Both the position numbers and the translations under genes were made by a program. This document shows positions 15,401 to 63,141 of a DNA stretch of 64,000 nucleotides, piece by piece. Under the pieces are notes generated by a model. That model ran no database searches and had not been told where the DNA came from. It saw only the letters and a list, made by a program, of their open reading frames with translations. This stretch comes from Macrostomum hystrix (Eukaryota > Animalia > Platyhelminthes), in the NCBI GenBank assembly GCA_950097015.1, contig CATNEN010000039.1, positions 310,001 through 374,000 of the forward strand, in the 5' to 3' direction. How positions within the stretch are numbered: the stretch's first letter is position 1; the number at the start of each line of letters is the position of its first letter.

Positions 15401-15541
15401 CGTCAGCAGCAGTTGGTCGAGTCTCAGGAGGCTGCGAAGAAGCGCAAGACGGCCGCCACTGCAGGAGGCAGCAGCGGCTACGGGCGGAAGGCTGGTCCGC
15501 TGAGCGGCTTCGGCCTGAGCGGCTTGCGGAGTCACGACTGA
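12414..15541 (+). CDS. TIMM50: Mitochondrial import inner membrane translocase subunit TIM50
   Basis: Exons 12414-12618, 14451-14893 and 15080-15541, phases compatible. Arg/Ser/Leu-rich presequence, one hydrophobic segment, then [44 protein letters not shown] and [15 protein letters not shown] (FCP1-like domain lacking the DxDxT motif, as in TIM50). Confidence 0.95.
12655..14125. repeat. 45/43 bp minisatellite in TIM50 intron 1
   Basis: Unit TGCACAAGGCAGGGTAACTGAACAGAGTGAAGTGTGCAGCTGCAG; the 43 bp variant contains CAGG|GTAAGT. Confidence 0.97.
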
Positions 15542-16890: not shown

Positions 16891-16953
16891 CATGGCCATC
16901 CGAGAAGGACTAAATGAGTAATTTTCAATTCTACCGCATTCAGCGCCTGACCG

Positions 16954-19900: not shown

Positions 19901-22900
19901 ACAAAGAAAACAAAGTCTATATCTTTTTTTCATTTGGGGCTTCAATCCACAACATACCATTAATTCCACCTGCTGACGGTGCCGACGGCGTCGGGCTGGC
20001 GACCATGATTGGCTGACAGACTATGGGAGCATGCCTTGTAGCTGAGTGTTGCCCAATTTCGAGGCTTGATGCCACCTGTTGAAGGTCCAGCAGCTCTGTC
20101 TGGATAAAGGGCGGTGACCACCGAATTCGGAGATGATGCAGAGGCACATTCGGGTGACGTGCTGATAAAGTTCGAAGGCCTGGCAAGGCCGCACTGAGAC
20201 GCAGTGCTAATTCGTCTATAGGGTGTATGAAATACACTAGCGCTTAGTTGGCCTTAGTTGAGTTTCGTTTGCTTGCGTTGCTCCATTCGGGCGCGGCAAA
20301 AAAAATTGTCAGCGGGAATAATACCCCCTCTTGGTATAAAAACGGGAGGCAAAATGGCTTGGCAGTCCTACTGTTAATTTTTTGTTTCCAAAAATATTCA
20401 ACCAATCGCAATGAAAATCCTGAACACGGGCTAAAATTTTCCGCTCTATCCGATGAAACAACTTTCAGAATCACAAAAAATCTGCATCGTCAAGATATTC
20501 AACGATTCTCGTCGGGAGTCTGGTGGCAAAAACGAAAAATATAGGCGAAAATTTTCCAGTCACAAAATTTCATCATGTAATCATGTCGGCTAATATTGGT
20601 GACGAAGACGATATTGTATTGCTTCTTTTGTTAACTTATACACTTATAAACCAATGTGGATTCGCCAAAGATTATTATACAGAGCGATGTTATTTGTCCA
20701 TGTCATGTCTTTCTATTGTTAAGAGCTTCTCCTGGAGCTAAAAAACAAACCTTAATATCCAAATTCAAATTTACTTGAAGTATGAAGACATAAGTTACAC
20801 TTACCTCAGATCAGCTGTTGTAGATTTCTCAGAGGATACACATGACACGCTCGTAATCCAGCTGTAAAGACAGACTAAAGATCCTGTCATTGATTTTCAG
20901 TTCCACTTGCCAACTCATTTCCCGGATTTCACTGCAGCTTAAACCATCATTCCTAAGCTCAATCCGCTGTCACATCCGCCCCAGATACGGTGGCCCGCCA
21001 GTGGGCGACCTGCAGCGTGAGCGCAGCCACCTGCTCTGCTCAGCTGTGTCGCGCGCGCTGCTGTTCGACGCCACTCACGACAACCCGAGCCCCGTGGAGG
21101 CCCGCTCTGCGCACAATCTGCTGCCCGCCGCTGCCCTGGTGGCCATGGCTGCCTGCGCCACAGGCAGCAATCGCGGCTGTGACGAGCTCGTTCCGCATCA
21201 TATCCACGTAGTTCGGGAGACCCGCCTGTACCAGACGGCACAGCAGGTGCGTTTTCGTTCTGCTGCTCCGCACCACCCTGCCAGCCTGACGTGACAATGC
21301 CATTTCGTGGCCTACGGCTTCAATTGGCCTTTAAATTACACCTGAGTACTAAATGTGCTCGAATTGCATTCCAACTCCAACTGAGCGTCCCACTGCAACT
21401 CAGCATCCCACGCCAACTCAGCATCCCATGCCAACTCAGCATCCCACGCCAACTCAGCATCCCACTCCAACTCAGCATCCCACTCCAACTCAGCATCCCA
21501 CTCCAACTCAGCATCCCACTGCAACTCAGCATCCCACGCCAACTCAGCATCCCACTCCAACTCAGCATCCCACTCCAACTCAGCATCCCACTGCAACTCA
21601 GCATCCCACTCCAAATCAGCATCCCACTCCAACTCAGCATCCCACTCCAACTCAGCATCCCACTGCAACTCAGCATCCCACTCCAAATCAGCATCCCACT
21701 CCAACTCAGCATCCCACTCCAACTCAGCATCCCACTGCAACTCAGCATCCCACTGCAACTCAGCATCCCACTGCAACTCAGCATCCCACGCCAACTCAGC
21801 ATCCCACTCCAACTCAGCATCCCACGCCAACTCAGCATCCCACTGCAGCTCAGCATCCCATTCCAACTCAGCATCCCACTCCAACTCAGCATCCCACTCC
21901 AACTCAGCATCCCACTGCAACTCAGCATCCCACTGCAACTCAGCATCCCACTCCAACTCAGCATCCCACTGCAACTCAGCATCCCACGCCAACTCAGCAT
22001 CCCATGCCAACTCAGCATCCCACGCCAACTCAGCATCCCACTCCAACTCAGCATCCCACTCCAACTCAGCATCCCACTCCAACTCAGCATCCCACTGCAA
22101 CTCAGTCCAAATCTCCGCTGCAAACCCTCAGGTTGAAAAGGAACCGGCTGTCACTAAAGGGAAGCGCATTGTTAACCAGCTACACGCTTACTTGGCTGCC
22201 GAGGGCTTCAATGAGCAGTTCGTGGACCAGGTGACAGACTCGGTTGTAGCCGTGACCCGCCATAATCCTAGCAACCACCAGAGTGTCATCCTTGTGGCCC
22301 ACACCGCCTTCTCGCCGCCCCCCGCTGGAGCAGCAGCCGCCTCACCTCGAGTTCCACCTCTGCCCATCAGCGGCAGCATCCCTGAGGTCATCTTCGAGAT
22401 GACCTTCAGCCAGAGGCTGGTGGAGTTTGTACGTGACCCCGATGTCATCAACGGCCTCTCGGGCTGCTCCCTGGAGGTACAGGAGCACGTGCCGCTGGAG
22501 AAGTCTCTGCTGGTCGCTCTTGAGGGAGATCAGCTGCACTTTAAGCACCTGCCACCTGGAGCCGTGAGTTGTCCTGCAGGACTAACTGGTTAACAGTAGA
22601 AAGACCACCATATATTTTCAAATGCACACACTGCCTACTTCACGATAGCTCCCAAACCGAATGACCGAGTTTCGTAACAGTTTACAATATGCATAAAAAT
22701 TTTAAGCCCTTTACCCGAGGATGAGCTAACTTTCAAAGCCGTTCGAGTCAGCATCGTCCAGATATTCAGAGATTCTTGTCGAAGATACTGGTTGCAAGGA
22801 CAACTAACACTGCTCGTTATAAACCTCTTTGGCGAATCCACATAGGTTGAAAAGTGTATAAATTAACAATATAAGCAACAAAATATAGTCACCAATGCTA

Positions 22901-25900
22901 GACTGCATTATTACTCGTACATTATGAAATTAACAATATAAGCAACAAAATATAGTCACCAATGCTAGACTGCATTATTACTCGTACATTATGAAATTAA
23001 CAATATAAGCAACAAAATATAGTCACCAATGCTAGACTGCATTATTACTCGTACATTATGAAATTTTGTGAGCAGGAAATTTTTTGCCTATATCGGTGGT
23101 TTTCTTCACCAGACACCACGACGAGAATCGTTGAATATCTCGACGATGCCGATGTTTTCTGATTCTGGAAATTGTTTCATCGGATGGAGTGGAAAATTAT
23201 AGCCCGTGTTATGGATTTTCAGGGCGATTAGTTGAATATTTTGGGAGATACAACAGAAGATGTGGGTATTTGAAATATCCACATCGTCTTTCTACAGTTA
23301 GACATGGATTTAGTCATGACGAGTCAGCTGAAAGTTAGCTTCAGTTAAATCTAACTCTAATTTATGTAATTATTATTTAATATTATTTAATTCTTGTTCG
23401 AAACAGCTATCAGCGCTTAAATTTACAGCTTGCTAATAGGTGCCATCTTTTGAATGCCATTAGAGCAGGCCATTCCTGTTTCCGCTCCCTCCCTTTGAAC
23501 AGGTAGTGGCTGTCCGGGTGCTTCTGAACGAGGCCTCCGAGCGGGCATGCTTCGTTCTGAAGCAGACTCTGCACACATGCGAGTCACCTGAGTCCGGTGT
23601 GTCCCTGACGAATGCTGTGGCTGGGCTGGACGCTAACCACCTGTCCTATCTGCTTTTCCGCTGCGCTGCCGAAGAGGGTGGCGCGATCTACAATGTGCCT
23701 GGCTTCGGGGACCTCGTTTACTGTGGCCTGCACCGACTGGGTCGGCTCATGCGAGAGGTCAACCTTCAAAAGGACCTGGGACACCCTGTGTGCGGCAACC
23801 TGCGGCAGGGTGACTGGCTGCCCGACTATGTGCTGGGCCGGATTAACAGGTGAGAGATAGGGACTGTGTTGGGCCGGATTGACATGTGAGAGATAGGGAC
23901 TGTGCTGGGCCAGATTGACAGTTGAGAGATAGGGACTGTGCTGGGCCAGATTGACAGTTGAGAGATAGGGACTGCTGGGCCGGATTGACAGGTGAGAGAT
24001 AGGGACTGTGTTGGGCCGGATTGACAGGTGAGAGATAGGGACTGTGCTGGGCCAGATTGACAGTTGAGAGATAGGGACTGTGCTGGGCCGGATTGACAGG
24101 TGAGAGATAGGGACTGTGTTGGGCCGGATTGACAGGTGAGAGATAGGGACTGTGCTGGGCCAGATTGACAGTTGAGAGATAGGGACTGTGCTGGGCCGGA
24201 TTAACAGGTGAGAGATAGGGACTGTGTTGGGCCGGATTGACATGTGAGAGATAGGGACTGTGCTGGGCCAGATTGACAGTTGAGAGATAGGGACTGTGCT
24301 GGGCCAGATTGACAGTTGAGAGATAGGGACTGTGCTGGGCCGGATTGACAGGTGAGAGATAGGGACTGTGCTGGGCCAGATTGACAGTTGAGAGATAGGG
24401 ACTGTGCTGGGCCGGATTAACAGGTGAGAGATAGGGACTGTGCTGGGCCGGATTAACAGATGAGACATAGGGACTGTGCTGGGCCGGATTAACAGGTGAG
24501 AGATAGGGACTGTGCTGGGCCGGATTAGCAGGTGAGAGATAGGGACTGTGCTGGGCCGGATTGACATTTGAGAGATAGGGACTGTGCTGGGCCGGATTAA
24601 CAGGTGAGAGATAGGGACTGTGCTGGGCCGGATTAACAGATGAGACATAGGGACTGTGCTGGGCCGGATTAACAGGTGAGAGATAGGGACTGTACTGGGC
24701 CGGATTAACAGGTGAGAGATAGGGACTGTGCTGGGCCGGATTGACAGTTGAGAGATAGGGACTGTGCTGGGCCGGATTAACAGGTGAGAGATAGGGACTG
24801 TGCTGGGCCGGATTAACAGATGAAAGATAGGGACTGTGCTGGGCCGGATTGACAGGTGAAAGATAGGGAATGTGCTGGGCCGGATTAACAGGTGAGAGAT
24901 AGGGACTGTGCTGGGCCGGATTGACATTTGAGAGATAGGGACTGTGCTGGGCCGGATTAACAGGTGAGAGATAGGGACTGTGCTGGGCCGGATTAACAGA
25001 TGAGACATAGGGACTGTGCTGGGCCGGATTAACAGGTGAGAGATAGGGACTGTGCTGGGCCGGATTAGCAGGTGAGAGATAGGGACTGTGCTGGGCCGGA
25101 TGGACAGTTTGAATATCGGCATCGAGTATTAAGCTTCAATCACTCCGCAAAGGTGTGGCTTTGCTCCCAAACTGTCTACCTGGCTGTCCGAGTACCTGAA
25201 GGCCATGCGGCAGATCCCGCGCTACCTGATCCCATCGTACTTCGGCTCCGCAATCATCCGCATCCACGACTCTCTGCTGATGCGAGCTCGGCAGGTTCTG
25301 CTGCCCGGGCAGCCGACCGCCTCCCGCCTGCTGTTTTGCTTGTCTCTCGGCTCCCTGCAGTTCGTCGGCAATCCACCCGATTCGGCCCTACCGCCATTGG
25401 CGCCCGCACTCGCATCGCAGCTGCCGCACCTCTCCATCGCTGCCGGGTTCCCCCACTTCGCCGCCGGATTGTTCCGCAACTGGGGGCGCGACACTTTTAT
25501 CTCCCTGCGCGGCCTCCTGCTCCTCACCGGTCGCTGGGCCGACGCTCGCTCAGTGCTGCTGGCGTACGCGGGCGCTCTGCGGCATGGCCTTATTCCCAAT
25601 TTATGCGGCGGCGGCTTCGGTGCCCGCTTCAACTGTCGCGATGCCGTTTGGTACTGGCTACACTGCGTCTGCGAGTTCGCTGCGAACGCGCCCTCCGGCA
25701 TCGACATCTTCGCCGATCCGGTGCTGCGGTTGTTTCCCAGTGATGACTCGCCACCTGTATTGGACTGCGTTCAGCCTTTGCATCAGGTATTCAATTCCAG
25801 CCATGCCTGTTCAATACCAGCATTGCCTGTTCAATTCCAGCATTGCCTGTTCAATTTCTGCATTGCCTGTTCAATTCCAGCATTGCCTGTTCAATTTCTG

Positions 25901-35677: not shown

Positions 35678-36397
35678 TAAGTTTTTTGTATTTACTCAAA
35701 ATTAAACTAAGCAGATGGGCTGCTAAACCCTAACAATCGACTTTCCTCACTAGCTATTGAAACTCAAATTTAGTGAATGCACTTTTTATACTTTTATATT
35801 GAATTATCAGCGCCGCGTACGAGCATAGCTGTCGCTGCATTTCGGCAAGTTTCTGGCAATATCTCATTTTGCCTTCACTTTTGCTTGCCCATTGCCCAGT
35901 GACCCAGTGACTTTCCATATCCTATATTATATGATAGCTATGTGGAAGCAGGACACAGGCTCCTGTCCTCCCCGAATCTGCTCACAAAATTTCGTCATGT
36001 AGTCATGTCGACTGTTATTGCTGATTATAATGTACAGATTATATTGTTTGTTTCGTTTTTATTGAACCAATATGGATTCGCGATATAGGCTTTTACAAAG
36101 CAATGTTAGCAGTCTTTGTCATCAGTCTTCGAAAAGAACTGCTGAATATCTTGACGATGCTGACGTTAGACGGCTTTGAAAGTTGGTTTATCGCAACGGG
36201 CGGAAAATGATATGTATGTTGGACTTTCACGAAAATCGTTTATTCGGTTTGGTAGCTATCGTGAAGTAGACAGTGGGTACTTGAAACCCTGCGGAAAATG
36301 ATATGTATGTTGGACTTTCACGAAAATAGTTTATTCGGTTTGGTAGCTATCGTGAAGTAGACAGTGGGTACTTCAAACCCTGCGGAAAAATGATTTG

Positions 36398-39300
36398 TGT
36401 GATATCTGACACGAGTTCGTATTTGGGAAGGAAGAACCGGTTGTAAGTCTATTTTGTTATTTTAGCATTTCAAATAATCAGATCATCTCAAGGGTGAATA
36501 AGCAGGGCAATACGTGTAGCTTTTAAAGAAGGGGCAAGCATCACTGGCAGAACGAAGTGAAGATAGGGCGGGTTTGTACCATAGACTAAACTTCAATGCG
36601 TGTCATGTCTCCCATCAGACAGAAGTTGAACAGCAACAAAGGGGTGATAATAAGTAGGGTTCAATGAGGTGCAAAGATGGGCTAGTTAATGGATTCAGTC
36701 CAGTAATTTAGTAAAGCAATTAGTTCAATGTATAACTACTAGTATGTTCAATGCTTCTTAGATATAAAATCATGGGGCATAACGGCTTGGCGGCCTGCGC
36801 TCGCGCGTGCTTCGGCGATATCCTACGGGTTCGTGTGCTTGCGCCTCTCCCGTTGGTGCAGCATCGGCGGTGTTTGCCATCGTGTCCACGACTTCAGTGT
36901 CTAGCGACTCGCCGTCATCCGGCAGGGGTGCGAGCTGATTCTCGCTCGCCAGGCGGAGGTCAGCCCCATCCAGCACCCAAGCCGTATTGTGTCCGCGGTT
37001 CATCACGTACTCAACGGTGGAGGGCGGAGCTCTCGGTACCGGCTGATAGAGAACCCGCTCGCCTTGATTGAATGGAGATACCAGTGGCACACGAAGTGGG
37101 CGTCCGAAAACAAGCTCAGCAGGACTGCGGCCGCGTGATTGCGCAGAGTTGCGGTGGTGGAATAGGACACGCTGTAAAAAGGGGGTAAATTCAGCATGAG
37201 TGATCTTTTCGGTCCACGCGCGTAAAGCTCTCTTGACTGTCTGAACAGCTCGTTCAGCAGCACCATTTACTTGCGGGTAGTAGGTGGGTGACTCAAGCTT
37301 TCTGACTCCATTCAGCTTCAGCCATGTTCTGAATGCGTCGCTGACGAACTCTGGTGCATTGTCTGAGACCAGCAACTCTGGGACACCAAATCGAGTCACA
37401 ACTGTTCGCAGGGAGCGAATCACAGAGTCGCTAGACCTGTCTTTGCATGGAAATGCCTCAATCCAGCCGGAATAGGCATCGACCACGATAAGAATGTTTC
37501 CGACATCTTTGATATACGCCCAATCGATATGAAGCTTTTGAAACGGGTAGTCCGTGTTGGGCCAGGTGTCTCTAGTCTTTAGAAGTCTAGGTCTCAATTT
37601 GCTGCAGTCAGTGCACTGCCGGACAAATCGCTCAACGTCTGAGCGCATCCCGGGCCACCAACACGACAGGGACATCAAATTAAAGGTGGCGATGTAGCCG
37701 GAGTGGGTGCTGTGTGCTGTTTTGAAAGCTTCCTTGCGAAGCCGCGGTGGAATATAGGCTTGGCGGCCTTTGAATAATAGTCCGTCTTCAATAGTGAGCG
37801 ACTCAGCCACCCTCTCGAAAGCCTGCTCAGCCTGGGAACACCGGTGCCAATCGCCGGAACGAACCCGGGTCATGATCTTTTGAGAAAGGGTGTCCAGGTC
37901 AAGTTCGGCCAAAAGGCGTTGATGTGAGATGACAGGGGTCTCGAACGCAACGCAGTTTATAGCCTCGGAGACGTCCTTGGAGTCAACCGTTGCATCAGTG
38001 AAGCGCAGTCGAGACAGAGCGTCAGCATGCGGAATATCGCTGCCCGGCACGTAGCGAATGGTGTAATTATAGTGCATTAATGCCATTGCCCAGCGAGAGA
38101 TTCGCGTTGAGGTGTTGAGTGGGATTCCGCTTGCTTGTCCCAGGAGACTGATCAATGGTTTGTGGTCCGTCTGAATTGTGAAGTTTCTTCCTAGCAGATA
38201 GTGTTTCAGTCTGTTGACGGCCCAAAATATTGCCAGTGCCTCCCGCTCGATATTCGAGTAGTTTTGCTCCGATTTTGTGAGGCTTCGAGATATGTAGATA
38301 ACAGGGTGTCCTTCCTGTGTGACTACACCAGCGAGAGCACCTTTCGAGGCGTCAGTTGTGAGAGTGAGCTCCTTCTCCAATGAGTAGGGCTGAACCACAG
38401 GCTTTGATGCGATCTCGTTTTTTAAAGCTTGAAATGCGCGCTCGCATTCGTCAGTCCACCGAAATGGCGTGTCAGCTCGGCGAAGGCGATTGAGCGGATC
38501 GACCTTGCAAGAGAAGTTTGGGATGAGTCGGCCGAAGAAATTGACAAGCCCTACAAACTGTTCCAGTTCCTTTTTATCAGTTGGTGAGGCAATTTTGCGT
38601 ATCTTTTCCACCAGCCTGTCGTCTGGCTTGATGCCAGCGGCAGATATTTGGAAGCCCAAGAAAGAAATTTCATCTGCTTCCTCGACACACTTGTCCTCGT
38701 TGATGGTGACGTGCTTCTCTGCTAATCGTGTCTTTACAGCCCGAAGCCTCTTTTTCAGGGAATCTTGGTTCTCGGCAAACACTAAGACATCGTCCTGGTA
38801 GATGAGAACTCCTTTGAGGTCCGATAGAATGCTCTCCATTGTTCGCTGGAAGATGAAGGATGCATTCTTCATACCCATCTGAAGCCTTTTGACCCGAAAG
38901 AGTCCTTTCGACGTGTTAATTATGGAGAGGTCCTGAGCATCTTCATCAAGTTCAATTTGCCAGTAGGCGGAGCGTAAGTCTACTTTCGCAAACTTCTTTG
39001 AATTTTTTAACTTTGCCAGCAGATACTCCACACTTGGGATCGGATAGTCTTCGGATTGGATCTTAGCATTTACATGCACGCTATAGTCGGCGCACATCCG
39101 TAGCGTGCCGTCCTTTTTCTTTACCCAGACCACCGGGGAGGAGTTACTCACCGGTCCGTCGATGGGTTCAATTACGCCAAGTTGCTGCAGTCTGTTCAGC
39201 TCGGAGTTCACGGCCGACTCGAGTGCAAGTGGCACCGGGCGAGCGCGGCAGAACTTGGGCGCAGCGCCATCCACCAGAGTCATTGTTGCTTTCTGGCCTT

Positions 39301-40709
39301 TGATTATTGGCAGATTCTCAATCTTTGGCACATTGTTGGTTCCAGCCGCAACGCTAAAGATGCTATCGGAATCTAGAAGGTCTCGGCCCAGAAGACCAAA
39401 ATCCTTGCTGGCTCTGACAACCGTCATGGTAACAGGGTGTAGCCGACCTCGGAATTCGATTGCGGTTGGCAATGAGCCCAGAACTTGGAGCTGATGCCCG
39501 TCATATGCTTGGAGCCTGCGGTGAGACGTCTGCAGTGCGGGACGGCCGATGCGGTCCCAGATGACGGAGGATATTATGCTTACCGCAGCACCTGTATCCA
39601 GCTGCATGGGCACACGGGCCCCCATGATGACAACGTCTTCCATAGCACTGCTAGCTATGGCATGAATTGCGTCGGCGTCAGAGAGGTGTAGAACTTCCGG
39701 CTGCGAACAACTGGCAGGGTCATCGTCGGCATGATGTACGTGTTTTGGCCGTGAGGAGCGGCACACCGAAGCGAAATGATTTGCCTTTGAACATTTGCTG
39801 CAGGTCTTGCCAAAGGCGGGGCACTTGCCCGTTGCGTGAGATTTGCCACAGTAACCACAGTTACGGTTTGCTGCCTGTCGCCGAGAATCGCTGTGGTTTA
39901 TCTCTGCGGCAACGTTGCACCGCTGATTCGGTGATGCCTGAGACTCGACGAATTGCTTCATCTGACCTAGCTGATGCACCAGTTCGATAATTTCAGCAAC
40001 AGGAAGCTCCTTCACTTGCATGGCCTCAAGAACCTTCTGCTGGGTCCGTGGACAGTGCATGCCGGCTACAAGCGCGAGCTTGATCATTTCGTCCTCGGGG
40101 CTCGCCGCCCGCTTCAGTTGGTCAAACTTGCAGGTGCGAGCTGCCTTCTTCAAACGCACAAGAAAGTCCGGCAAGGCTTCGTTGTCGTGTTGTCGAAGCG
40201 AGTAAAATTTCGTCCTTTCGCTGAGAACCAGCCGCTCTTTGGGCTGGAGATATGTTTAGATGGCATCTTCGATAGCGCTAAATGTTTGTGTGACTACTTC
40301 TGCAGGAGCCAGCAGGCATGAGAGCTTTTCCAAGGAATTCAAGCCACAAAGAGCTAGGAAGTTGTCTGCAATTTGTCGACTTTCGACTGTATCTGTCCAC
40401 TTTCGCGCTCGAGCCAAGGCGCGAAATGCAATAAGCCATGTCAATGCACGGTCCGTATCGTTTAGGTCTAAAGGACCAAGACATCCTGCTTGCGACGCCA
40501 TTGTGATATCTGACACGAGTTCGTATTTGGGAAGGAAGAACCGGTTGTAAGTCTATTTTGTTATTTTAGCATTTCAAATAATCAGATCATCTCAAGGGTG
40601 AATAAGCAGGGCAATACGTGTAGCTTTTAAAGAAGGGGCAAGCATCACTGGCAGAACGAAGTGAAGATAGGGCGGGTTTGTACCATAGACTAAACTTCAA
40701 TGCGTGTCA
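36398..40709 (-). mobile_element. Ty3/gypsy LTR retrotransposon, Mag-like
   Basis: Two identical 208 bp TG...CA LTRs (36398-36605, 40502-40709), PBS TGGCGTCGC 1 nt inside the 5' LTR, 5 bp TSD ATTTG/ATATG with one mismatch, single gag-pol frame. Confidence 0.96.
36770..40501 (-). CDS. Gag-Pol polyprotein (two CCHC knuckles, protease, RT, RNase H, integrase) with one in-frame TAA at 40256-40258
   Basis: CGYCGKSH...C and CSKCSKANHFASVC; LDTGA; YQDD; TDAS and YSNIEREAL; H..H/C..C zinc motif; HID, SDNAPEF and NGAAERAV. ORFs 40256-40516 and 36770-40174 are in the same frame. Confidence 0.92.
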
Positions 40710-41031
40710 ATATGTATGTTGGACTTTCACGAAAATAGTTTATTCGGTTTGGTAGCTATCGTGAAGTAGACAGTGGGTACTTGAAACCCTGCGGAAAAAT
40801 GATATGTATGTTGGACTTTCACGAAAATAGTTTATTCGGTTTGGTAGCTATCGTGAAGTAGACAGTGTGTACTTGAAACCCTGCGGAAAAATGATATGTA
40901 TGTTGGACTTTCACGAAAATAGTTTATTCGGTTTGGTAGCTATCGTGAAGTAGACAGTGGGTACTTGAAACCCTGCGCAAAATGATATGTATGTTGGACT
41001 TTCACGAAAATAGTTTATTCGGTTTGGTAGC

Positions 41032-41786
41032 GTGTCCAATCGGTGTTCGCTGATTGGTTGTAAACACCCACCCCAGACACCCACCCCTCCGCCTTGTGCT
41101 GGGTCGTATTTCAGCCGGCGCCCGCGTGCTGCCCAGCCTTGTCTCTTCGCGCTGCGTGGTGCGTGGTGCTTCTGCCTTCTGTATTTTTGCTTTCGCGTTT
41201 AGTTGTCGTTTGCTATGCTCGCTGGTCTTGCTGTAACTTTTTTTACACTTTCAACCATTTTGTGTTTTATGTTTTAGCTCAGTTTTAAGTGCGGTGTCAC
41301 CCTCTTTTGCTTTTCGTGTTGCGTGCCTCCCTCCTTCCTCTTCTTTTTTGGGTTTGGGCCATAGACGGTGCCCTTCCCTCGTTCGCTCTCTGCTATGTCG
41401 CAACTGCTGTCTCTGTCTGCCTTCGTGTCTGGGAGTGTGGTGTTTAGTGTCCAATCGGTGTTCGCTGATTGGTTGTAAACACCCACCCCAGACACCCACC
41501 CCTCCGCCTTGTGCTGGGTCGTATTTCAGCCGGCGCCCGCGTGCTGCCCAGCCTTGTCTCTTCGCGCTGCGTGGTGTGAAATTTTCTTTTTTGCCTTTTC
41601 CTGGCTTCCTTTTTCTTGCTTTTCTGTGCTTTTTGCTTTCTTCGCCGTTTTAATTATTTTCTTCGAAACAATTTATCAGCAAATATATTGCATGTGGGCC
41701 ATAGACGGTGCCCTTCCCTCGTTCGCTCTCTGCTATGTCGCAACTGCTGTCTCTGTCTGCCTTCGTGTCTGGGAGTGTGGTGTTTA
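41032..41786. mobile_element. Miniature ORF-less element with split direct repeats (A1-B1A2-B2), Ngaro/PAT-like
   Basis: A1 41032-41161 = A2 41447-41576 (130 bp); B1 41355-41446 = B2 41695-41786 (92 bp). Removing the element restores the host unit GGTAGC|TATCGTGAAG exactly, with no TSD. Confidence 0.75.
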
Positions 41787-43056
41787 TATCGTGAAGTAGA
41801 CAGTGGGTACTTGAAACCCTGCGGAAAAATGATATGTATGTTGGACTTTCACGAAATAGTTTATTCGGTTTGGTAGCTATCGTGAAGTAGACAGTGGGTA
41901 CTTGAAACCCTGCGGAAAAATGATATGTATGTTGGACTTTCACGAAAATAGTTTATTCGGTTTGGTAGCTATCGTGAAGTAGACAGTGGGTACTTGAAAC
42001 CCTGCGGGGGAAATAGTGTGATCTTTCTACTGTTAAGTAGCCATGCTCGCATATAATGCTAGCCTTTCGATTTCAAGCACTTTTTCTACTCGTAGCTCTC
42101 TCATCAATAAACAAAAATTCATAATCAGATCCCCAGTTCCCAGCGGTTTTAGTTGGAGGCCCTTTTGCAGTCACTGCATCTGTCCGAGTCCTACAGCCGC
42201 TATCTGGAAATCCGAACCAAACACAAGCCCGGCACATGATACATATTACGCTTGTTTGTGCTGGGAAATATGCACAGTGGAATCTGTAGGGAAGCAATTG
42301 TGCTGTGAATGACGGTGTATTTCGCAGGCTTGTAAGCATATGCAGAATTGACTAATTAGTTTATAGGCAGTTGTGAACAAAATCTTCTGCGGCTGAACAA
42401 GTTCAGAAGTAAATACGAGCTCGTAATCAAAACTCTGAATATTAGTCAACCATGGGCTGCAAGCGCGAAAAATTTGAGAAAAAATACTTCATATCAGGTG
42501 CAGCTGTTCCAGATTGCTCCCAAAGTGCCCCGTGTTCCGCTCCATGAGGGAGAAAAGCCGCAGATGAGCAGTAAAACTGGCCCTTCACCAACTCGCTGCT
42601 TGCTGAGAAGCAGCAGGACTGGCTGTGGTGGCCTGCTAACTGCATTGGAAGCATGAGCACAGTATCTGCACTAGCGTAAGGCAACTACAAGAACAGGAGA
42701 ATGAAAAAATAGGCAGAAACTCCAGGGAAGAAATCTCGAACGCGTGCTTGAAGCAAATGTCGAGCAACAGAAAGCAAATAGGAAGGCGGAGCGGGAATCG
42801 CGCTGGCTGCGGCGGGCAGGAATGGGCGCCGGTGCTCTGATGAGAGCAGTGAATCAGTGCAAGGGATTTCTTATCCCGGTCTGCGCATATGTGTTGTGGG
42901 ATGATTGGCTTTGAGGAGGTTAGGAGGCATGAGCTCGAAGACCGAGTATTAATCCTAATGAGTAGAGGCTGGGGCGTCAAGTGAAAACATTTGAGTTGGA
43001 GTAATTCTGCCAAGTTGCTCAAATCAGCGTTGAGACCGGCAGCAGCCGCGAGCCAG

Positions 43057-46000: not shown

Positions 46001-49000
46001 TTTCTATTATAGATGTGCATCGGAATGTAACAAAGCAGAACAAGAAGGTAGCAAAACAAAGGCTTGATACCTGGCCCCTCAGTGCAGCATAAGGGCCGTT
46101 CCTGCCCTGCAAGTCGGGTTTCATAGGTTTGGACATAGAGTGCTGAGGTGCAAGGTTTAAACATAAATTGGCAATCCCAATCAACTCAGCTAATTTTTTA
46201 TCGCAAAGTAAATCCAGAATTGGTCGAAAAACTGCTGACTATTCACATGTTGGAGTATTTCCAAAAACTCAAAGAAAACTACTGAAATTCTGGCCGCAGT
46301 TGACTCACCTTAATGGACAGGCTACTCGTTGAAGCACTGGCCGCAGACTTCGAGGGCGTAGGCGTCGGTGGTGGCTGCGGTGTTTGCGGCGGAAGAAGAA
46401 TGTCAGAGCCGTCAGCTGGCTCATCATGGCCGGTGGCGGGCGTAAACTGCTGATGCTGCTGCTGCTGCTGCTGTCTGGAGTCGTAGCCGCTGAACGTGTC
46501 AGCCCGCTTCGGCAAGAACACCGAGGCGGCCGCCTTGTCCTCGGCGTTGCTGGCGCTGCGGGTAAGACTCACGCCAGAGGCCTCCGGGCGCGCAGCGGCG
46601 AAGGAAGGCGCGGAGTGGAGCAGGCGGCGCAGGCACTCGAGCTCCTGCAGGGACAGCCGCAGCAGCTGGTCCGGGTCCGCGCCCTCCTCCGGCGTGGCCG
46701 CGGGTTCCGACGGACCCCATAGGCCGAGCAGCTGCTTCCACAGCTGACTCTTCTCGTTGAGCAGCGCGCGCAGCTCGCGGTCCTTGGCCTCCATGCTGGC
46801 AAGCAGATCAGCGGACACCTTCGACTTCTGGCGCAGCCGCCTCTCGGCCTCAACTGCTCGCTCGTCCGCACGGGGATTTGAGTCTCGGACCTGCAGAGAA
46901 AAAGCAAAAAACTGATTAATGAGGGGAGAGGATGATAAACCCAACGCCGATAGCTGCTGCCTGCGAGGACAATGAGTGACTCTGCGACTATGCACGGGTT
47001 TTCTGAGAACCCATCGAAGCCTTGGCAGGTCCAGCTCCCACCCACCTGGTTGATGCGACGCAGCCACTTGTTGCGCTCCTCCAGGCTCATGCAGCTCAGG
47101 TTGATAAGCGCCGGGTCGGGCTTCTTAATGATGACAAAGAAGGTCGCCTTGGACTTGGCGGTCTCGTTCTCGCGCACGATGGCGTCAGTCTCGCTGAAGT
47201 GGATGACGGGCACGTAGCGGTTGGGACAGGCCAGCGGGCTGTAGCGGCCGCCAGGGAGTTCCTGGAGGAACACGAGCATGTCGTTAAGCAGCAGGGCGAA
47301 GCAGGGCACGGGCGATTTCAGTTCGCTGGTCTGCAAACGCAGGTGGCCGCTGTGCAGTAGGCTGCGCGACATCAGCTGTTCGGCACTGAGACTGCTCTGC
47401 TCAGGAGGTGCGGGCTGGAAGTTGGCTGCGATCTGATCCAGCAGGTGGCGGTTGTGGCTGCTCTCCACGGTCGCGTTAACGCCCTCCAGCAGGCGGTCAA
47501 GATCCTGGCAGGCCCGTGGCATATCCGGGTCCTCGGGCGCAACCTGGCAGTACTCGCTGATCTGGGGGAACAGGGTCTTGTACTTGGACAGCCGCTGAGT
47601 CAGCATCAGGTAGTAATCCTGGAAGGGGGGAGGGCATAAGTTAGAACCCTAGCAGATTCGTCTGAATTGTGTGCATGTGCTCAGTGACAGCACAGACCTG
47701 CAGCGTCTTCCTGCCCGCCAAGGGGCTCCGCTCGCATTCGCGAAGCAGCGCGGGAAAGTCCGGCCAGCGCAGAGCCAGCAGGCCAGGCGCCTTCTGCAGG
47801 CGCAGCGTGTGCTCTGAGCAAAAGCCGCCGTAAGCGCCCAGCCAATCGCGGCCGTTCGGATCGCCGAGGTGCCTCCGCAGGATGGCACCGATGCGGCCGA
47901 GGCCGGGCCAGTCGGACGGATGTTTTTCAGGTGGGGGCTCGCAGTTACGCAGGTCCTGCAGCAGCTGGCTGTGCAGGTGCTCCAGCTTGTCAAGGTGAGG
48001 AAAAAGCTCTTCGACGTCGCGACCGGCGGAGAACAGACGGAGTGGGTCGCGAAAGACGGCCCGCAGCACGCAGATGTTCCTGAGGTGGCTGACCTCTGTG
48101 GACACGAGCTCGTAGATAAAGTTGCAGCGGCGGACCTGCTTCTCACCGCAGCGCTTCAGCAGCCGCCTGTCCTGCGTTTCTGACCAGGAGGCGACGCGCC
48201 GCAGCGACTCAGAGCTCAGCGCCTCCAACCGCGGATCGGAGAGGCGCGCCAAGTACTCCGAGAGTTGCTGTACGGCAGAGCCGCCCGCGCCTCCTCCAAC
48301 GCCCGGCATCGCGGAGGTCGGGCGCACAGAGACCGTGGACGAGGCCTGCCAAGTGGCGCCAGAGCCGTCGGCGGTGTCCATGGTGCTGCCGCCTGCGCCT
48401 CTGCGGTCGTTGCTGACGCTACTGCAATGCAAACCAAATTTGTGAATGAGTAGTCACCCACAGGCTGATTGAGTTAGTAAATTTCGAGTTCTCTTTGCAT
48501 GTAAGAAGTGTATACAATGCTCGGTAGTGTAAGTGACGCAGTGAGCTCAGCTGGTCAATTGTGACCTGCTTGGCTCGGAAAGCTGGTAGAGCGGGCGGCG
48601 ACCGACTGGGTTGGGATATTTCCAGCTCCCTGAAGGCACAGGAAAGCAGGCCCGGCCGCACCCAGTTTCAGCTAGAGAATCTGAGCAACCCGTAAGCTGC
48701 TCTTCCGCCAAGAAGTCGGCGATATTGCGTAGGCTTGGGTAGCTGGTGTTAGAAGTCTGGGCTCTGTGCTTATTGCACCTTCATTGCGCAGCCCGCTAAT
48801 ATGAAGGTTCTGCGCACCTGCACTTGCGCACCTGCCATCAATGCAGCGCCGCTTCTTCAGCTGATTCCTGAGGCCAGCCCCATGCACTGCAAGTAGGCCT
48901 GTGTATACACACAGCAGACGGTGAATGCACAGTGAAATGGAATGGCCATTCAAGCTTAGCCAAGGTGAAAAAAGTGACTGTTAGTCAGCTGCAAAATGGG

Positions 49001-58000: not shown

Positions 58001-61000
58001 ATCTGCTGCAGCTCCACCAGCAGCGGGAGAGGACCCAGACATGGCGTTACCAGCCATAGGCGGCAGGCAGGACACGATTTGGAAGCGGCAGGCCTCCGCG
58101 TTGTGCACAGTCAGGTGGCAGACTGCAGAAGTCGGGGTGGGGAAATCCTTTGGGTAACAAAGGCTACAAAAGAACTGCGCAACTTGTGCGATTGTGAAAC
58201 AAGTTCAGATTACATCTTAAACATCGAATAGTGCGGTGTGCGAGGCGCGTGGCAGATGATGGGTAGGAGTAGTTGAGGGGTGTCCCAAAAATAGTGGGAA
58301 AGCTCGATGCACAGGCTAATTAGTAAAACAAAATTTATTGAAACTCACGTCACTGATACATAAACATTCAACAGTACAAAGTATTTTTGAATCGATTAAA
58401 AATGTCAATTCATTTAAAAGTTATCGCTAAAATTAGAACAAGGGGTAAGGGGCAGAGTTACACCAAGTCAAGGCCCCAACCCAAGTTTGTACTCGTACTC
58501 AGACGAAAATTTTGCGACAGAAGAAAAGGAGCAGAAACATCAGAAAACAGAAGCAGAAAAAAGCAAAAGACAAACAGAGAAGCGTGAGCACCAGAATCAA
58601 AAGAAGCACAAGCTGACGCAAGAGAAATCCGTGGCACTAACGGCAGCAAGCACATCGCGGATATCGACTATTGCGTACGCCTCGACAAGATGCCGCTGTT
58701 GAGTTTAGAGTTTTTCATTTATCCTTGTGCGATCGTTCAATGTTTAGCGTTTCGTCCAAAAAGATCAACGCCAGTTCGTGTACTCCCAGTGGAAATTGGG
58801 GAAGCGAGGTAATGAAATCGTAATCCAGCTGACTGAAATCCACGGAGTGAGCGCCATCTCGAAGAGTGCTGTCTTTCGCTGGCTTGAAGAGTTCAGTCAT
58901 GGGCGAACAGACGTTGCTGATGACACAGCCAACCGTGGCCCTCCGATCTCTCCATCAACAATCACACAGATTCAAAGGGTGAAGGTAATCATACAGGAAA
59001 ATTCCGGTCTGACTGCAAGAGAGTTGGCGGATCGACTAGGGAGTCCGAAAACCTCAATTCATCGGATCTTGTCTGTGGATCTTGGCATGTTGAAACTGAC
59101 AGTGGGATGGGTGCCCCGTTTGTTGACGGGCGGGTTCTGCTGCACGAAATTCCGCGTCGGGCTTAGGCAAATTAAAGCAATGCGCTTTTCACCGATGGAC
59201 TAAGTGCTGCGAGCTGAGGGGCGACTTCGTCGAAAAGTCGTCAGTCGATGGCGATGCTTCGTGACCAATTTTGCTGCTGGCCTTGACTTGGTGTAACTCT
59301 ACCCCTTACCCCTCGTTCTAACTTTAGTCAAAACTTTAAAATGAATTGACTTTTTTACTTGATTTAAAAAGCTTTGGAGCTTTCGAATGTTTATTTATCA
59401 GTGACGTGAGTTTCAATAACTTATGTTTTACCAGTAAGCCTGTGCATCGAGTCTACCCACAATTTTTGCGACACCCTACGTAGTTTTTCGTTAGTCGAAA
59501 CGAAGCGTAAAGCCTGCATAAAAGTATAGCGATAAAAATTCGCGTTCGACTCGTTCACTTGTACACCGAAATTCGCGAGCTAGTATTTTTAACAGATGCA
59601 ACTTCTGCACGTATACTAGCGGGACTCACCCTGGCAGAGTGCAGTTAGCGGGACTCACCATGTCAGAGCAGCAGTTAGCGGGACTCACCCTGGCAGAGCA
59701 GCAGCAAGTCATGCTAGCGGGACTCACCCTGGCAGAGCAGCAGCAAGTCATGCTAGCGGGACTCACCCTGGCAGAACACTAGGGCATGTTAGCGGGACTC
59801 ACCCTGGCAGAGCAGCAGCAGCAAGGCATGTTAGCGGGACTCACCCTGGCAGAGCAGCAGGGCATGTTAGCGGGACTCACCCTGGTAGAGCAGCAGGGCA
59901 TGTTAGCGGGACTCACCCTGGCAGAGCAGCAGGGCATGTTAGCGGGACTCACCCTGGTAGAGCAGGACTCACCCTGTCAGAGCAGCAGTTAGTGGGACTC
60001 ACACTGACAGAACAGCAAGGCATGTTAGCGGAACTCACCCTGGCAGAGCAGCAAGCAGACCCGCTGAAGGTGGGTTTCGCAGACGGCACACTTTCCTGTG
60101 GCAGCGACGCTCCAGTTGTGCTCGTAGACCGGATGCTTGGAGCCGCTGATGGCACCTTTCGCCTTGCCACTAACGCCGCCCTTTGCCCGATAGCTTCCGC
60201 TCAGCCTGGACAGGAAGCTCTTCCGCTTCTTGCGGTTGCGCTGCTCGCTGAGCAAAGTTGCGGGGTGGTTGCGATTATCTTTGCGCAAGTGGCCATGGCG
60301 ATTCTAATGCAAACAGCTGGCCGCGTGGCACGACTGACTGTTAGCTTGAAGGCATAGGGAAAGAAGACTGCAATATGAGGCCCGGATCTGGGTCAGGGGT
60401 TCTGTCTGTGTATACAGTACAATAGATCAGTCTGTAGTAATATTTACATTACATGTTTCACTCTAGCAGCTCCTGGACAACCCACTAGGCTTGCAGTCCG
60501 CAGTGCCCAGGCAGCCCTGCATTCCAATCCTCCAACCCGCTAGTCGTACTGCTTGGCGGGCTCGACTGCAACCGCTGATGCGCAAGAAATTCGATACGGT
60601 TGGTGCGCTGCATGGCTTTCCCTGCCAATTTGAACAAGCCTGGGAAAAGACTGAGCTGCACAATTTAGCCCACAGGCTTTGGAGGGTGCCAATGGCCAGT
60701 TAATTGGAAACAATCCGAAAGTTTTTTCGGGACCAACTGTTGCAGTGAAGCATTAACAGTAGAAAGGCCACGCTATTTTCCCCCTTGGAAAAGACCACGG
60801 GGCTATTTCAAATACCCACTGCGTAATTCACGACAGCTCCCGAGATTGGCTTAACAGTAGAAAGGCCACGCTATTTTCCCTTGGAAAAGACCACGGGGCT
60901 ATTTCAAATACCCACTGCGTAATTCACGACAGCTCCCGAGATTGGCTTAAAAGTAGAAAGGCCAACGCTATTTTCCCTTGGAAAAGACCACGGGGCTATT

Positions 61001-63141
61001 TCAAATACCCACTGCGTAATTCACGACAGCTCCCAAACCGAATGACCGATTCCCGTGAATGTGCACCATCTAAATCCAAATTTTCCACCCTTTTCGATAA
61101 ACTAACTTCAAAGCCGTCCGAGTCAGCATCGTCAAGATATTCAGCGATTCCTGTCGGAGTCTCTGGTGACAAGGACAACTAATATTGCTCTGCATAAACC
61201 TCTTTAGCGAATCCATATTGGTTCAAAAACGAAATATAAACACATAATTGAACAATTAAACAATTTAATCAATCCAAAATAGTCAACAATGATCATAGCC
61301 GGAATGAAAACATTATGAAATTTTGTAAAAAAAAGTTTGGCTAATTTTATTACTTTTGCCACCAGACACCCCGACCAGAATTGTTGAATATCTCGGTGAT
61401 GCCGATGTTTTGTGAGTTTGGAATTTGTCTCATCGGATAAAGCAGAAAATTTTAGCCCGTGTTCTGGATTTTAATAGCGAAATATTTTGGGAGATACAGA
61501 GATACAGAAAAATGTGGGTATTTGAAATGCCCCCCGTGGTATTTCTACTGCTAACTGATCTATTTCACAAGGCTATTTTCCTATTTACTATGAAGAGTGA
61601 TTGAAGTTAAAAAGGTGAGGCGACGGGACAGCAGGACTGAGACTGGGCTGTTTAGCAAGCTATGCGCTTCAAGGCAGTTAGTGGAAAAGCAGTGACTTAA
61701 GCACTCATCATGATCTGCACGGCAGAACAAATGAATTATCGTTAAAAGGCCGCCTGCGACCCATACATTCTGTCTCGCGGCGGACTGCAGTTTGCGCTCA
61801 GCAGCCATGCGGCTCCTGCCAAGCGCTGCCTGCATGGCAACTGTGCGCTGTACCACAGAAAAGCAATACCGAACTGGAGTTAATGACAGCAAGATTCTTT
61901 ACAGAGTACTAGAAGTAGCGGATAATTGTGATTTACAAAGTTCCCAATGACCCGGGCAGGCTGACAAACGCATCCTCGCCGAGCTGCTGGCTGAGGCTGG
62001 GCACCTCGCTCTCCACTGTGCTATGCCTGTCAGCTGGCGCAGCTAGTAGGCTGCGCTTTCTGCGCCGCAGGTGTGCCGGAAGCGGCATTGGCGCGCTCTC
62101 GGGTGCGCCGGCGTCATCTTCCTCTCTGGCCATTGTTGGCAAGCTGCATGTGAGTCGAGGTGCACAACTTCTAACCGCTTCTGCCAACTTTTGAGCACCC
62201 ACAAATTTAAGGTAGGTGCTGGAACACTCGGTATAGAGCGGAAATTTTGCTAGAACAAGGCTATTGTAAGCGCATTCAAATTGCTTTCAAATTGGATTGC
62301 CTTTGACAGCAGGGAGTTCAATGGAAGCGAAAATAGAACATTTAATGCTGGAATCTAGCTCGAAGAAAGGATAGTGCGTTGCAATGCTCAGTGGAAAATG
62401 ACAAATTCAAAAGATGCAGAAATAATCGACAAATGGAATACTCCGACTCACTTAGCTAGGTCATCGAATAGGCTGGGTGTGCTGATGGAGCGCGAAGATG
62501 CTGCTAGTTGCTGCTGCTGCTGCTGCTGGAGTTGCTGTTGCTGCCCTGCCCGCGCCTCCTCAGATGGAAAATCATATATTAATCCAGAATTCATCATAGA
62601 CTGGCTCATAGAATGAGTCATGGAGTGATTCAAAGCCTGGCTCATGCACGCATGACTCATGGACTGGCTCATGGAGTGGCTCATGCTCATTTCACCGGTG
62701 GGGCCTAGCACTAGTGAGTCGGTCTCAGCAAATTGCCCTCTGCCACGGCTGGCGACGTCTGCTCGGAAGTCGGTGGCAGAAGCGACTACGTCCTCGGCCG
62801 TGTCGAACAGGAGGTCGTCGATCGAGCGACCAATCTCAGTTTGCGCACATGCAGTTTCCTTCAGCGCCACTGCTCCCTGCTTTGGGTGAATCAAAGTTGC
62901 TGTTTATTTAATGTAATCAATCTCAAGTAAAATAGATTGATTACTGTCAATTAATTTCTGTCAACGAACAGGAGGAAGTTTGGTCGTGGGATGTGAATGG
63001 CAAATCAACAGATCGATATATTATAGCGAAGTTACGATGAGACTTGAATCCCAATCTGAATGTGAATAAGCTTGTCTTAATGCCTAGTCATTACCTCAGA
63101 TGCTGGATCCTGCGTCTGTGGACTCCGCAACAAATAGTTCT
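43057..63141 (-). CDS. Rho guanine nucleotide exchange factor, Lbc/ARHGEF18/ARHGEF2/AKAP13-like (C1-DH-PH-coiled coil); 5' end outside the window
   Basis: Well-supported exons: 63141-63095, 62880-62452, ~62143-61966, 60303-60039 joined to 58122-~57818 (together forming the C1 domain HNWSVAATGKCAVC...CQVCHLTVHNAEACRFQIVSC), ~56904-56765, 48421-47698 (DH: FIYELVSTEVSH), 47618-47046 (LTQRLSKY, PH), 46890-46309, 45704-45645, 44888-44577, 43761-43062/43057 (coiled coil). Small exons at 49-51 kb and the last exon are uncertain. Confidence 0.85.
43802..44527. repeat. 48 bp minisatellite, RhoGEF intron
   Basis: Unit CTACAGACTCCTRAGGACACCCAGAAATAGGTGACCCACTAGTTTAAT, about 15 copies. Confidence 0.97.
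44930..45143. repeat. 31 bp minisatellite
   Basis: Unit CTGACAGATGACTGCAGTGCCATCCTGCCTG, about 7 copies. Confidence 0.95.
45800..45967. repeat. 25 bp minisatellite
   Basis: Unit CWGTACACTGGAACAGTGATGGGAT, about 6.5 copies. Confidence 0.95.
49815..51028. repeat. 36 bp minisatellite
   Basis: Unit TTGATCTGCCTCTTATTACCCCATCCTTTGCAGCCT, about 33 copies. Confidence 0.97.
51697..52221. repeat. 18/22 bp minisatellite
   Basis: Unit GATATCACTCACCCACTGAATA. Confidence 0.95.
52957..53634. repeat. 52 bp minisatellite inside the P/hAT-like element
   Basis: Unit CAAGACCTACAAGATTTACTTCGCTAAATAATGAAGATKCATTATGTAGTAA, about 13 copies. Confidence 0.97.
53845..54141 (+). mobile_element. tRNA-derived CORE-like SINE
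   Basis: A box TAGCCTAGTGG (53861), B box GGTTCGATTCC (53905), a MIR-CORE-like tract GTCCTTTAGCAAGACACTTAAC...CTTCAGTT...CTGTTAAATGGG, and a 9 bp TSD TTCCAATCA (53836-53844, 54142-54150). Confidence 0.85.
54281..54750. repeat. 44 bp minisatellite
   Basis: Unit GAGGGAACAACCCAGAACTGGGAGCATGGGTTCCACTGATACCT; its first copy (52231-52255) is separated by the transposon insertion. Confidence 0.95.
55556..56386. repeat. 22 bp minisatellite with an internal inverted repeat (GAATC-CC-GATTC)
   Basis: Unit GCCGAATCCCGATTCACACAAT. Confidence 0.96.
56384..56791. repeat. 54 bp minisatellite spanning a RhoGEF splice donor
   Basis: Minus-strand unit CCAAACTCTGMCCAGGAACTTCTCCAA|GTGAGTCCGGTTTGTGTGTGGCTGTGT, about 7.5 copies. 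Confidence 0.96.
58270..59482 (+). mobile_element. Internally deleted mariner-like element with ~205 bp inverted repeats
   Basis: TA flanks; arms 58270-58475 and 59279-59482; ORF 58778-59203 encodes the mariner N-terminal HTH region through WVPRLLT (WVPHEL-like) but no catalytic domain. Confidence 0.88.
59616..60056. repeat. 30-36 bp minisatellite spanning the donor that splits the RhoGEF C1 domain
   Basis: Minus-strand unit CTGCTGCTCTGCCAGG|GTGAGTCCCGCTAACATGCC, about 12 copies. Confidence 0.95.
60757..61550 (+). mobile_element. CAGTAGAAAG/TTAA MITE copy with its left end triplicated (96-98 bp unit, 60753-61034)
   Basis: TTAA|CAGTAGAAAG ... ATTTCTACTG|CTAA; co-linear with 22594-23297. Confidence 0.8.

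What the first reader, a model, noticed from the sequence alone, without database searches (positions are those of the whole stretch)
41032..41786. 755 bp ORF-less split-direct-repeat element inserted without a TSD: candidate miniature tyrosine-recombinase retrotransposon
Seen: the layout is A1(130 bp)-X-B1(92 bp)A2-Y-B2, with A1=A2 and B1=B2 and B1 directly abutting A2. The internal B1|A2 join (GTGTTTA|GTGTCC) is the junction the element's two ends would form if circularised. The host satellite unit is split cleanly (GGTAGC|TATCGTGAAG) with nothing duplicated or lost. Established: split direct repeats and TSD-less integration characterise PAT/Ngaro-type tyrosine-recombinase retroelements. Inference: this is a young non-autonomous miniature of that class, analogous to TRIMs among LTR elements.
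Basis: partly seen in the sequence, partly recalled or inferred. Interest (0 to 1): 0.72.

Follow-up and report, generated by a model that had tools for sequence, protein, structure and literature searches.

The report
Deleted split-repeat retrotransposon with folding junction
This 755-base gene-less insert is a shortened copy of a longer mobile element with split-repeat ends, likely a recombinase-type retrotransposon, and the point where its two ends meet is predicted to fold into a strong hairpin that may be its integration signal.

Summary
The layout is confirmed: A1=A2 (130 bp), B1=B2 (92 bp), B1 abuts A2, and the host minisatellite is cut with nothing duplicated or lost. Contigs of public runs add three things. 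The same two ends occur with other flanks. The B|A junction occurs in three studies, once in a diverged form. A longer partner exists: full A is 141 bp and runs on for 2 kb past an ATG, and the inner segment X runs back at least 0.93 kb into other sequence. So this copy is an internal deletion of a longer split-direct-repeat element: A1 is 11 bp short and the join carries a templated 4-base insert. That it is an amplified, TRIM-like family is not shown. The partner's genes could not be read, so Ngaro/PAT membership is inferred from structure. New here: the B|A junction is predicted to fold into a 71-base hairpin (z about -5). That could be a folded recombination site, but it is also Helitron2-like end anatomy, the main rival. 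Deleted and non-autonomous elements of this order are in print, and this scan noted similar miniatures and junction hairpins in other genomes (unchecked notes).

The parts
41032..41161 (+). A1: left terminal repeat, first 130 bp of a 141-bp A repeat
   Evidence: identical to A2 for 130 bp; full A runs 11 bp further in contigs of X3 and X4
41162..41165 (+). 4 extra bases at the internal deletion join; they make a 7-base tandem copy of the end of A1
   Evidence: sequence; contigs join X from 41166 on to other sequence
41166..41354 (+). X: T-rich last 189 bp of the long partner's internal region (likely 3' untranslated)
   Evidence: contigs of 4 of 4 runs carry X from 41166 and run on upstream into unlike sequence, by 930-955 letters in X1, X2, X4
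41355..41446 (+). B1: internal copy of the right terminal repeat
   Evidence: identical to B2 for 92 bp
41447..41587 (+). A2: complete internal copy of the left repeat (141 bp), abutting B1
   Evidence: B|A junction bridged by contigs in X1, X2, X4, X5, X7
41425..41495 (.). predicted fold-back across the B1|A2 junction: last 22 bases of B pair with A +30..+49 (20 matches, 2 bulges), around an inner stem at 41451-41472
   Evidence: -25.8 kcal/mol, z -5.2, 0 of 200 shuffles; strongest of 42 windows on each strand, z -8.5 and -5.7; absent at the two outer junctions
41588..41694 (+). Y: T-rich spacer between A2 and B2; shorter versions exist in related copies
   Evidence: joints 41585-41659 and 41562-41648 with 29-30 other letters
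41695..41786 (+). B2: right terminal repeat
   Evidence: other flanks begin exactly behind its last base
40710..42007 (+). host 92-bp minisatellite (40710-41031 and 41787-42007), split cleanly by the element

Best explanation
The 755-bp insert is an internally deleted, gene-less copy of a longer, recently dispersed element with A1-internal-B1-A2-B2 ends, which is likely a Ngaro/PAT-type tyrosine-recombinase retrotransposon. Shown: the repeats, the clean insertion, other copies with the same ends, and a longer form sharing A, X and B. Inferred from the published model for this order: the parent is transcribed from A1, copied to cDNA, its ends are rebuilt on the internal B1|A2 template, the ends are joined, and the recombinase inserts the joined end without duplicating the target. 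Inferred for this copy: everything from the last 11 bp of A1 to the last 189 bp of the interior was lost in one event that left a templated 4-base insert, either by template slip during copying or by break repair after insertion. It keeps all four repeats and would be copyable in trans, but further movement is not shown. The junction hairpin forms only when the B end meets the A start and is predicted to be the end-joining or recombinase signal.
For: Repeats and clean site. Other flanks exactly at the A start (or up to 4 letters before it where the flank resembles the B end): 8 contigs in X3, 1 in X6, and one flank shared by X5 and X7. Other flanks exactly at the B end: 3 contigs in X3, 1 each in X4, X6, X7 (only 24 of 79 and 12 of 32 loose-end rows were shown, and contigs are not loci). 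B|A junction bridged by 31 or more letters a side in X1, X2, X4 (one study), X5 (second study, organism B) and, with 7 differences in 131, X7 (third study). Long partner: X runs back 930-955 letters (X1, X2, X4); A runs on past an ATG, 2030 letters in X7 and at least 255 in X4, and the 19 letters seen from the ATG on are the same in both subfamilies while the letters before it differ. The layout and lack of TSD are those given for Ngaro, PAT and VIPER (PMC9210276, PMC8547959, PMC6681497, PMC8969392, PMC12278014; passages). A Ty3/gypsy element in the same array did make a 5-bp duplication.
Against: No RT, RNase H or recombinase could be read, so the class rests on DNA layout alone. The junction fold-back has the shape of Helitron2 ends. 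This site shares no letters with the B|A junction, and only 4 of the 10 other left flanks share 1-4 letters with the B end, whereas DIRS1-like elements are modelled to recombine through a shared 3-base core (PMC3266345). Contigs built from 31-letter words cannot phase across the 92- and 130-bp repeats, so the order long-B-A-Y-B is seen as a whole only in this window. X1-X4 are one study and may include the window's own source material.
Confidence: 0.65

Rival explanations
1. One reading: the 755-bp form is itself a mobile, amplified miniature family (a TRIM analogue) carried in trans by the long element.
For: All four repeats and the junction are kept and identical; both outer ends are precise. 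Trans-acting RT on a deleted DIRS-1 and multi-copy deleted Ngaros are in print (PMC7192593, PMC8547959; passages).
Against: A1 is 11 bp shorter than the family's A, and the join has the marks of a single deletion event. The window's X also lacks 5 letters that the contigs of all 4 runs carry behind 41291, which points to a private copy. Only one copy of this form is in hand.
Confidence: 0.15
2. The family is a Helitron2/Helentron-type rolling-circle DNA transposon, and the insert is a head-to-tail pair of two units with the same ends: a deleted long unit (A-X-B) and a short unit (A-Y-B).
For: One arm of the inverted repeat is terminal, the other lies 30 bases inside the opposite end behind a hairpin. 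This is the asymmetric anatomy described for Helitron2, including a form with the hairpin at the 5' end (PMC5148889, PMC11417382; passages). These elements make no TSD and form joined ends and tandems. Short A-Y-B contigs with other spacers exist.
Against: The site is C|T here and other right flanks begin with C, not the usual T|T. The arms are 20-22 bases, longer than the 12-17 used to detect this group. The B|A junction recurs in three studies and two subfamilies, as expected for a built-in part, and the two units have unrelated middles yet identical ends.
Confidence: 0.12
3. Local duplication of SINE, LTR or Penelope fragments, or an assembly artefact in a repeat array.
For: The insert lies in a tandem array in a repeat-rich window; two small indels in X differ from all contigs.
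Against: B1-A2-Y-B2 is matched without a difference over 360 letters by a contig of another data set, the ends are precise with many flanks, and the empty site is intact.
Confidence: 0.03

Closest known systems
Ngaro-like retrotransposons (Xenopus DIRS-53_XT, A 236 bp, B 152 bp; Cafeteria Ngaro types 1-4) (PMC9210276, PMC8547959; passages)
   Same: A1-internal-B1-A2-B2 with identical repeat pairs; B1 abuts A2
   Different: No ORFs; 755 bp instead of about 6 kb; a 107-bp spacer between A2 and B2; coding class of the partner unread
Cafeteria Ngaro type 2b deletion variants and solo AB repeats (PMC8547959; passages)
   Same: Deleted derivatives of a split-repeat element
   Different: Type 2b loses about 2 kb over ORF1 and occurs in several copies; here the whole coding region is gone and one copy is known
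SIRE of Trypanosoma cruzi = A2-spacer-B2 of VIPER (PMC6681497; passages)
   Same: Short non-coding unit made of the repeats of a tyrosine-recombinase retroelement; A-Y-B contigs of 264 letters here look alike
   Different: SIRE lacks A1 and B1; this copy keeps all four repeats and the internal junction
TOC1 of Chlamydomonas (called an active nonautonomous DIRS retrotransposon in bioRxiv 10.1101/2022.06.16.496473; passage). Its split repeats, its spacer and its size of about 5.7 kb are recalled, not read
   Same: Non-autonomous member of the order with split repeats
   Different: Much longer, and shown to move; mobility of the 755-bp form is not shown
Helitron2/Helentron (HLE2), including HLE2-reverse (PMC5148889, PMC11417382; passages)
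   Same: Asymmetric inverted repeat plus end hairpin; no TSD; joined ends
   Different: T|T target not met; longer arms; fixed long-plus-short double layout

Membership tests
Split-direct-repeat tyrosine-recombinase retrotransposons (Ngaro, PAT, VIPER) | A1-internal-B1-A2-B2 with A1=A2 and B1=B2 | tested here: met
   130 and 92 bp identical, B1 abuts A2; A1 lacks the last 11 bp of full A
Split-direct-repeat tyrosine-recombinase retrotransposons (Ngaro, PAT, VIPER) | No target-site duplication | tested here: met
   rejoined flanks equal 5 intact satellite sites; one insertion only, other copies' flanks cannot be paired
Split-direct-repeat tyrosine-recombinase retrotransposons (Ngaro, PAT, VIPER) | Dispersed copies with the same two ends, and the end-to-end junction held inside the element | tested here: met
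   different flanks at both exact ends; B|A junction in runs of three studies
Split-direct-repeat tyrosine-recombinase retrotransposons (Ngaro, PAT, VIPER) | Autonomous form encodes Gag-like, RT/RNase H and tyrosine recombinase between A1 and B1 | not testable with these tools
   a long interior starting near an ATG is seen, but only 30 letters of it are printed; indirect searches found nothing
Ngaro versus PAT | Methyltransferase domain (PAT) or its absence (Ngaro); RT phylogeny | not testable with these tools
   no coding sequence in hand
DIRS order integration model | Short core shared by the joined ends and the target (3 bases in DIRS1-like elements) | tested here: inconclusive
   no shared letter at this site; 4 of 10 other left flanks share 1-4 letters with the B end; right flanks mostly begin with C. 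The passages read state this core for DIRS1-like, not for split-repeat elements
TRIM-like miniature family | The short form is amplified as such, with the same internal join in several loci | tested here: inconclusive
   one copy in the window; no genome held; contig tables were cut
Helitron2/Helentron (HLE2) | Asymmetric terminal inverted repeats with an end hairpin | tested here: met
   arms of 20-22 bases are longer than the 12-17 used in PMC11417382
Helitron2/Helentron (HLE2) | Insertion between T and T (or TTTT and T/C) | tested here: not met
   C|T on +, A|G on - here; other right flanks begin with C, left flanks vary
Helitron2/Helentron (HLE2) | Rep/helicase in the autonomous form | not testable with these tools
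   partner interior unread
Replitrons | Short direct repeats at the termini | tested here: not met
   the two ends share no direct repeat; feature from PMC10288648 passages

The most novel reading that the evidence does not exclude
The B|A junction hairpin is the recombination site itself: split-repeat retrotransposons integrate from a folded single-stranded cDNA, as integron cassettes and CTX phage do (those two mechanisms are recalled), and this 755-bp copy is a near-minimal cis unit that can be moved in trans. This would join the single-stranded, mostly linear cDNA reported for DIRS-1 (PMC7192593) to a concrete substrate, and would explain insertion without a strict shared core.
Probability: 0.2. 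Interest if true: 0.75.

Novelty: new member of a known kind. Interest (0 to 1): 0.4.

Why it matters
How split-repeat tyrosine-recombinase retrotransposons join their ends and insert has hardly been tested. A 755-bp copy that keeps all four repeats, a precise empty site beside it, and a strong hairpin that exists only at the joined ends give a small substrate for that test. The family is recent and dispersed in its host. Two paper searches that named Macrostomum with Ngaro or with tyrosine recombinase showed no paper on such elements there by title, but the host name comes from an unchecked note. As a single deleted copy it is ordinary: deleted, solo and non-autonomous forms are in print.

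Tried and rejected
No whole genome is held, so copy number could not be counted. The A1|X join (about 41135-41165) has no cover in X1 and X4 and no listed contig bridges it in any of the four runs; the tables were cut and a gap in contigs proves nothing, so it is not used as evidence. No RNA holder is on record; nothing is concluded on expression. A 25-base piece of B found 0 matches in metagenome and viral contigs; a 24-base motif at the partner's ATG found 0 in metagenome contigs. Two 40-aa frames of the element, searched against longer proteins in the hope of reaching the partner's ORFs, found nothing (weak by the tool's own note). Rfam: none. Pfam on 66 of 107 frames of 110 aa or more (frames inside tandem arrays and 9 overlapping frames left out): no recombinase, Rep or helicase in the window; the only RT is the Ty3/gypsy one. 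X3 record 3 matches only 13 letters left of the junction and was dropped from the junction count. X5 record 9 reads A-Y-B-A, which is what a graph cycle through identical repeats gives, so it is not taken as a circle. A compensatory change in the outer stem is hinted (41428 T>C is common; a variant with the partner letter changed shows in one loose end) but cannot be phased, so it is not counted. Replitron rejected: my recollection of subterminal inverted repeats was not borne out by the passages. The bacterial promoter scan is irrelevant to this host. Goodwin and Poulter 2004 and the TOC1 structure paper are not held; no supplements were opened, and repeat libraries in supplements or Repbase may already list this family.

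Full report
Observation. A1 (41032-41161) equals A2 (41447-41576) over 130 bp and B1 (41355-41446) equals B2 (41695-41786) over 92 bp, with no extension on either side. B1 abuts A2. The two spacers are T-rich and no more alike than shuffles (score 26, reached by 50 of 500). The flanks rejoin into an intact unit of a 92-bp minisatellite; the 40-base empty site stands exactly at 5 other places in the window. Nothing is duplicated or lost, and the ends share no letter with the target. There is no coding capacity (longest ATG frame 31 aa; no Pfam match; no Rfam match). With 0 differences in 222 bp of repeat pairs, the rule of three puts their divergence under about 1.4%, so the last copying event is recent.

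Surroundings. The window is an intron-rich, minisatellite-rich animal sequence with Argonaute, glycogen debranching enzyme and RhoGEF genes. An earlier scan note on another piece of this genome calls it a flatworm; I did not test that. The host array (36200-42007) lies inside a dispersed repeat with TTAA-flanked inverted ends. It also holds a Ty3/gypsy element at 36398-40709 with identical 208-bp LTRs and a 5-bp target duplication with one mismatch. So an integrase element and this element sit in one array, and only the first duplicated its target.

Other copies. No genome was held, so I laid contigs of public runs on the element. Eleven of 12 listed runs hold part of it, in 4 studies; I laid 7 runs from 3 studies. 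Different flanks begin exactly at the A start, or up to 4 letters earlier where the flank resembles the B end, in 8 contigs of X3 and 1 of X6; one more flank is shared by X5 and X7. Different flanks begin exactly behind the B end in 3 contigs of X3 and 1 each of X4, X6 and X7. These counts come from 24 of 79 and 12 of 32 loose-end rows that were shown, and contigs are not loci. Right flanks mostly begin with C. The B|A junction is bridged in X1, X2 and X4 (one study; 0, 0 and 1 difference), X5 (a second study, organism B; 0 differences) and X7 (a third study; 7 differences in 131). The element therefore belongs to a dispersed family with fixed ends and a built-in end-to-end junction.

A longer partner. 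In 4 of 4 runs, X from 41166 on continues upstream into sequence that is not A, by 930, 938 and 955 letters in X1, X2 and X4. In X3 and X4 the A repeat matches to 41587, 11 bases further than A1 does, and then runs into other sequence with an ATG 11 letters on. In X7 a diverged A runs on for 2030 letters; the 19 letters seen from the ATG on are the same, while the letters before it differ. This looks like the start of a first ORF, but 6 codons are no proof. The window's copy is thus a long element that has lost everything from the last 11 bp of A1 to the last 189 bp of its interior. The join carries 4 extra bases that make a 7-base tandem copy of A1's end. From general knowledge this is the mark of templated end joining or of a polymerase slip; it does not tell whether the loss came before or after insertion. 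The copy also lacks 5 letters in X that contigs of all 4 runs carry. I could not read the partner's genes: the tool prints 30 letters, and five indirect searches found nothing.

The junction folds. The last 22 bases of B pair with A +30..+49 (20 matches, 2 bulges) around an inner stem at 41451-41472. The predicted fold is -25.8 kcal/mol, z -5.2, with 0 of 200 shuffles as good. It is the strongest of 42 sliding windows on each strand (z -8.5 and -5.7), and it is absent at the two outer junctions (-7.9 and -2.6 against -24.2). The inner 5-bp stem is kept, with a shorter loop, in a variant seen in X5 and X7. That stem is also two opposed CCAAT boxes, so a promoter role is an equal reading. Covariation of the outer stem is not shown.

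How it most likely works. The layout A1-internal-B1-A2-B2 without TSD is the published signature of Ngaro, PAT and VIPER retroelements (PMC9210276, PMC8547959, PMC6681497, PMC8969392, PMC12278014, PMC3783388, PMC13465315; passages found by term). In the model for the order, a shorter transcript is copied to cDNA, the ends are rebuilt on an internal template and joined, and the recombinase inserts the junction (PMC7192593, PMC3266345; passages). For DIRS-1 the cDNA is single-stranded and mostly linear, the internal template is essential, and RT acts in trans. I infer the same cycle for the parent here, with B1|A2 as template. The 755-bp copy keeps every repeat and would be copyable in trans. 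I put this reading at 0.65, the stronger miniature-family reading at 0.15.

The main rival. A terminal arm, a partner arm 30 bases inside the other end and a hairpin at that end are also the anatomy of Helitron2 ends, and a form with the hairpin at the 5' end is described (PMC5148889, PMC11417382; passages). The insert would then be two units in tandem. Against this: the usual T|T target is not met, the arms are longer than the 12-17 bases used to find that group, and the junction recurs across studies and subfamilies. For it: short A-Y-B contigs with other spacers exist, though these also fit SIRE-like or solo units, and contigs cannot phase across the repeats. I put it at 0.12. Only the partner's genes can settle it.

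What is known. Deleted Ngaros and solo AB repeats (PMC8547959), SIRE as A2-B2 of VIPER (PMC6681497) and the non-autonomous TOC1 (bioRxiv 10.1101/2022.06.16.496473, one passage) are in print. Ten paper searches, seen as listings, showed no title on a sub-kilobase element with all four repeats or on a junction hairpin in Ngaro; 'hairpin' does not occur in four of the papers checked for it. The library lacks most subscription papers, including Goodwin and Poulter 2004, and no supplements were opened. This scan has noted gene-less split-repeat elements and junction hairpins in other genomes. Those notes are unchecked and are not counted as support; one of them words the folded-site idea that I use as the novel case.

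Verdict. A real, recent, TSD-less insertion; an internal deletion of a longer split-repeat family; likely tyrosine-recombinase class, genes unread; miniature-family status not shown. New member of a known kind, interest 0.4, with the junction hairpin as the lead worth testing.

Noticed in passing
window 36398-40709 (-): Ty3/gypsy element (protease, RT, RNase H, integrase; 1161-aa frame) with identical 208-bp LTRs, inserted in the same 92-bp minisatellite with a 5-bp target duplication that has one mismatch; one stop codon interrupts the gag frame near 40256.
   Followed up: partly
window 35980-42036, 20387-20711, 22589-23295, 60753-61548: Dispersed repeat family, copies 70-80% alike, with TTAA-flanked short inverted ends (MITE-like). 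Its subterminal part has grown into tandem arrays at two copies: the 92-bp host array and a 96-bp array at 60753-61034.
   Followed up: partly
contigs laid on window 41447-41786 (X1, X3, X4): Diverged A-Y-B units with 29-30 other letters in place of 73-85 letters of spacer, a 13-base deletion in A and a 6-base deletion in B; either ends of other subfamilies or SIRE-like solo units.
   Followed up: no
contigs laid on window 41446 and 41786: Right flanks of other copies begin with C in X4, X6, X7 and in the majority of 3 contigs in X3; two left flanks in X3 end in the same 4 letters as B. A loose target preference is possible.
   Followed up: no
window 281-5519 (-): Argonaute gene (ArgoN, L1, PAZ, Mid, Piwi) with a minisatellite in an intron.
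   Followed up: no
window 14426-15538, 16951-23850 (+), 46572-48453 (-), 58748-59200 (+): Exons of an NIF-type phosphatase, a glycogen debranching enzyme and a RhoGEF-PH gene, and a helix-turn-helix frame between inverted repeats at 58278-59476 that may be a DNA transposon remnant.
   Followed up: no
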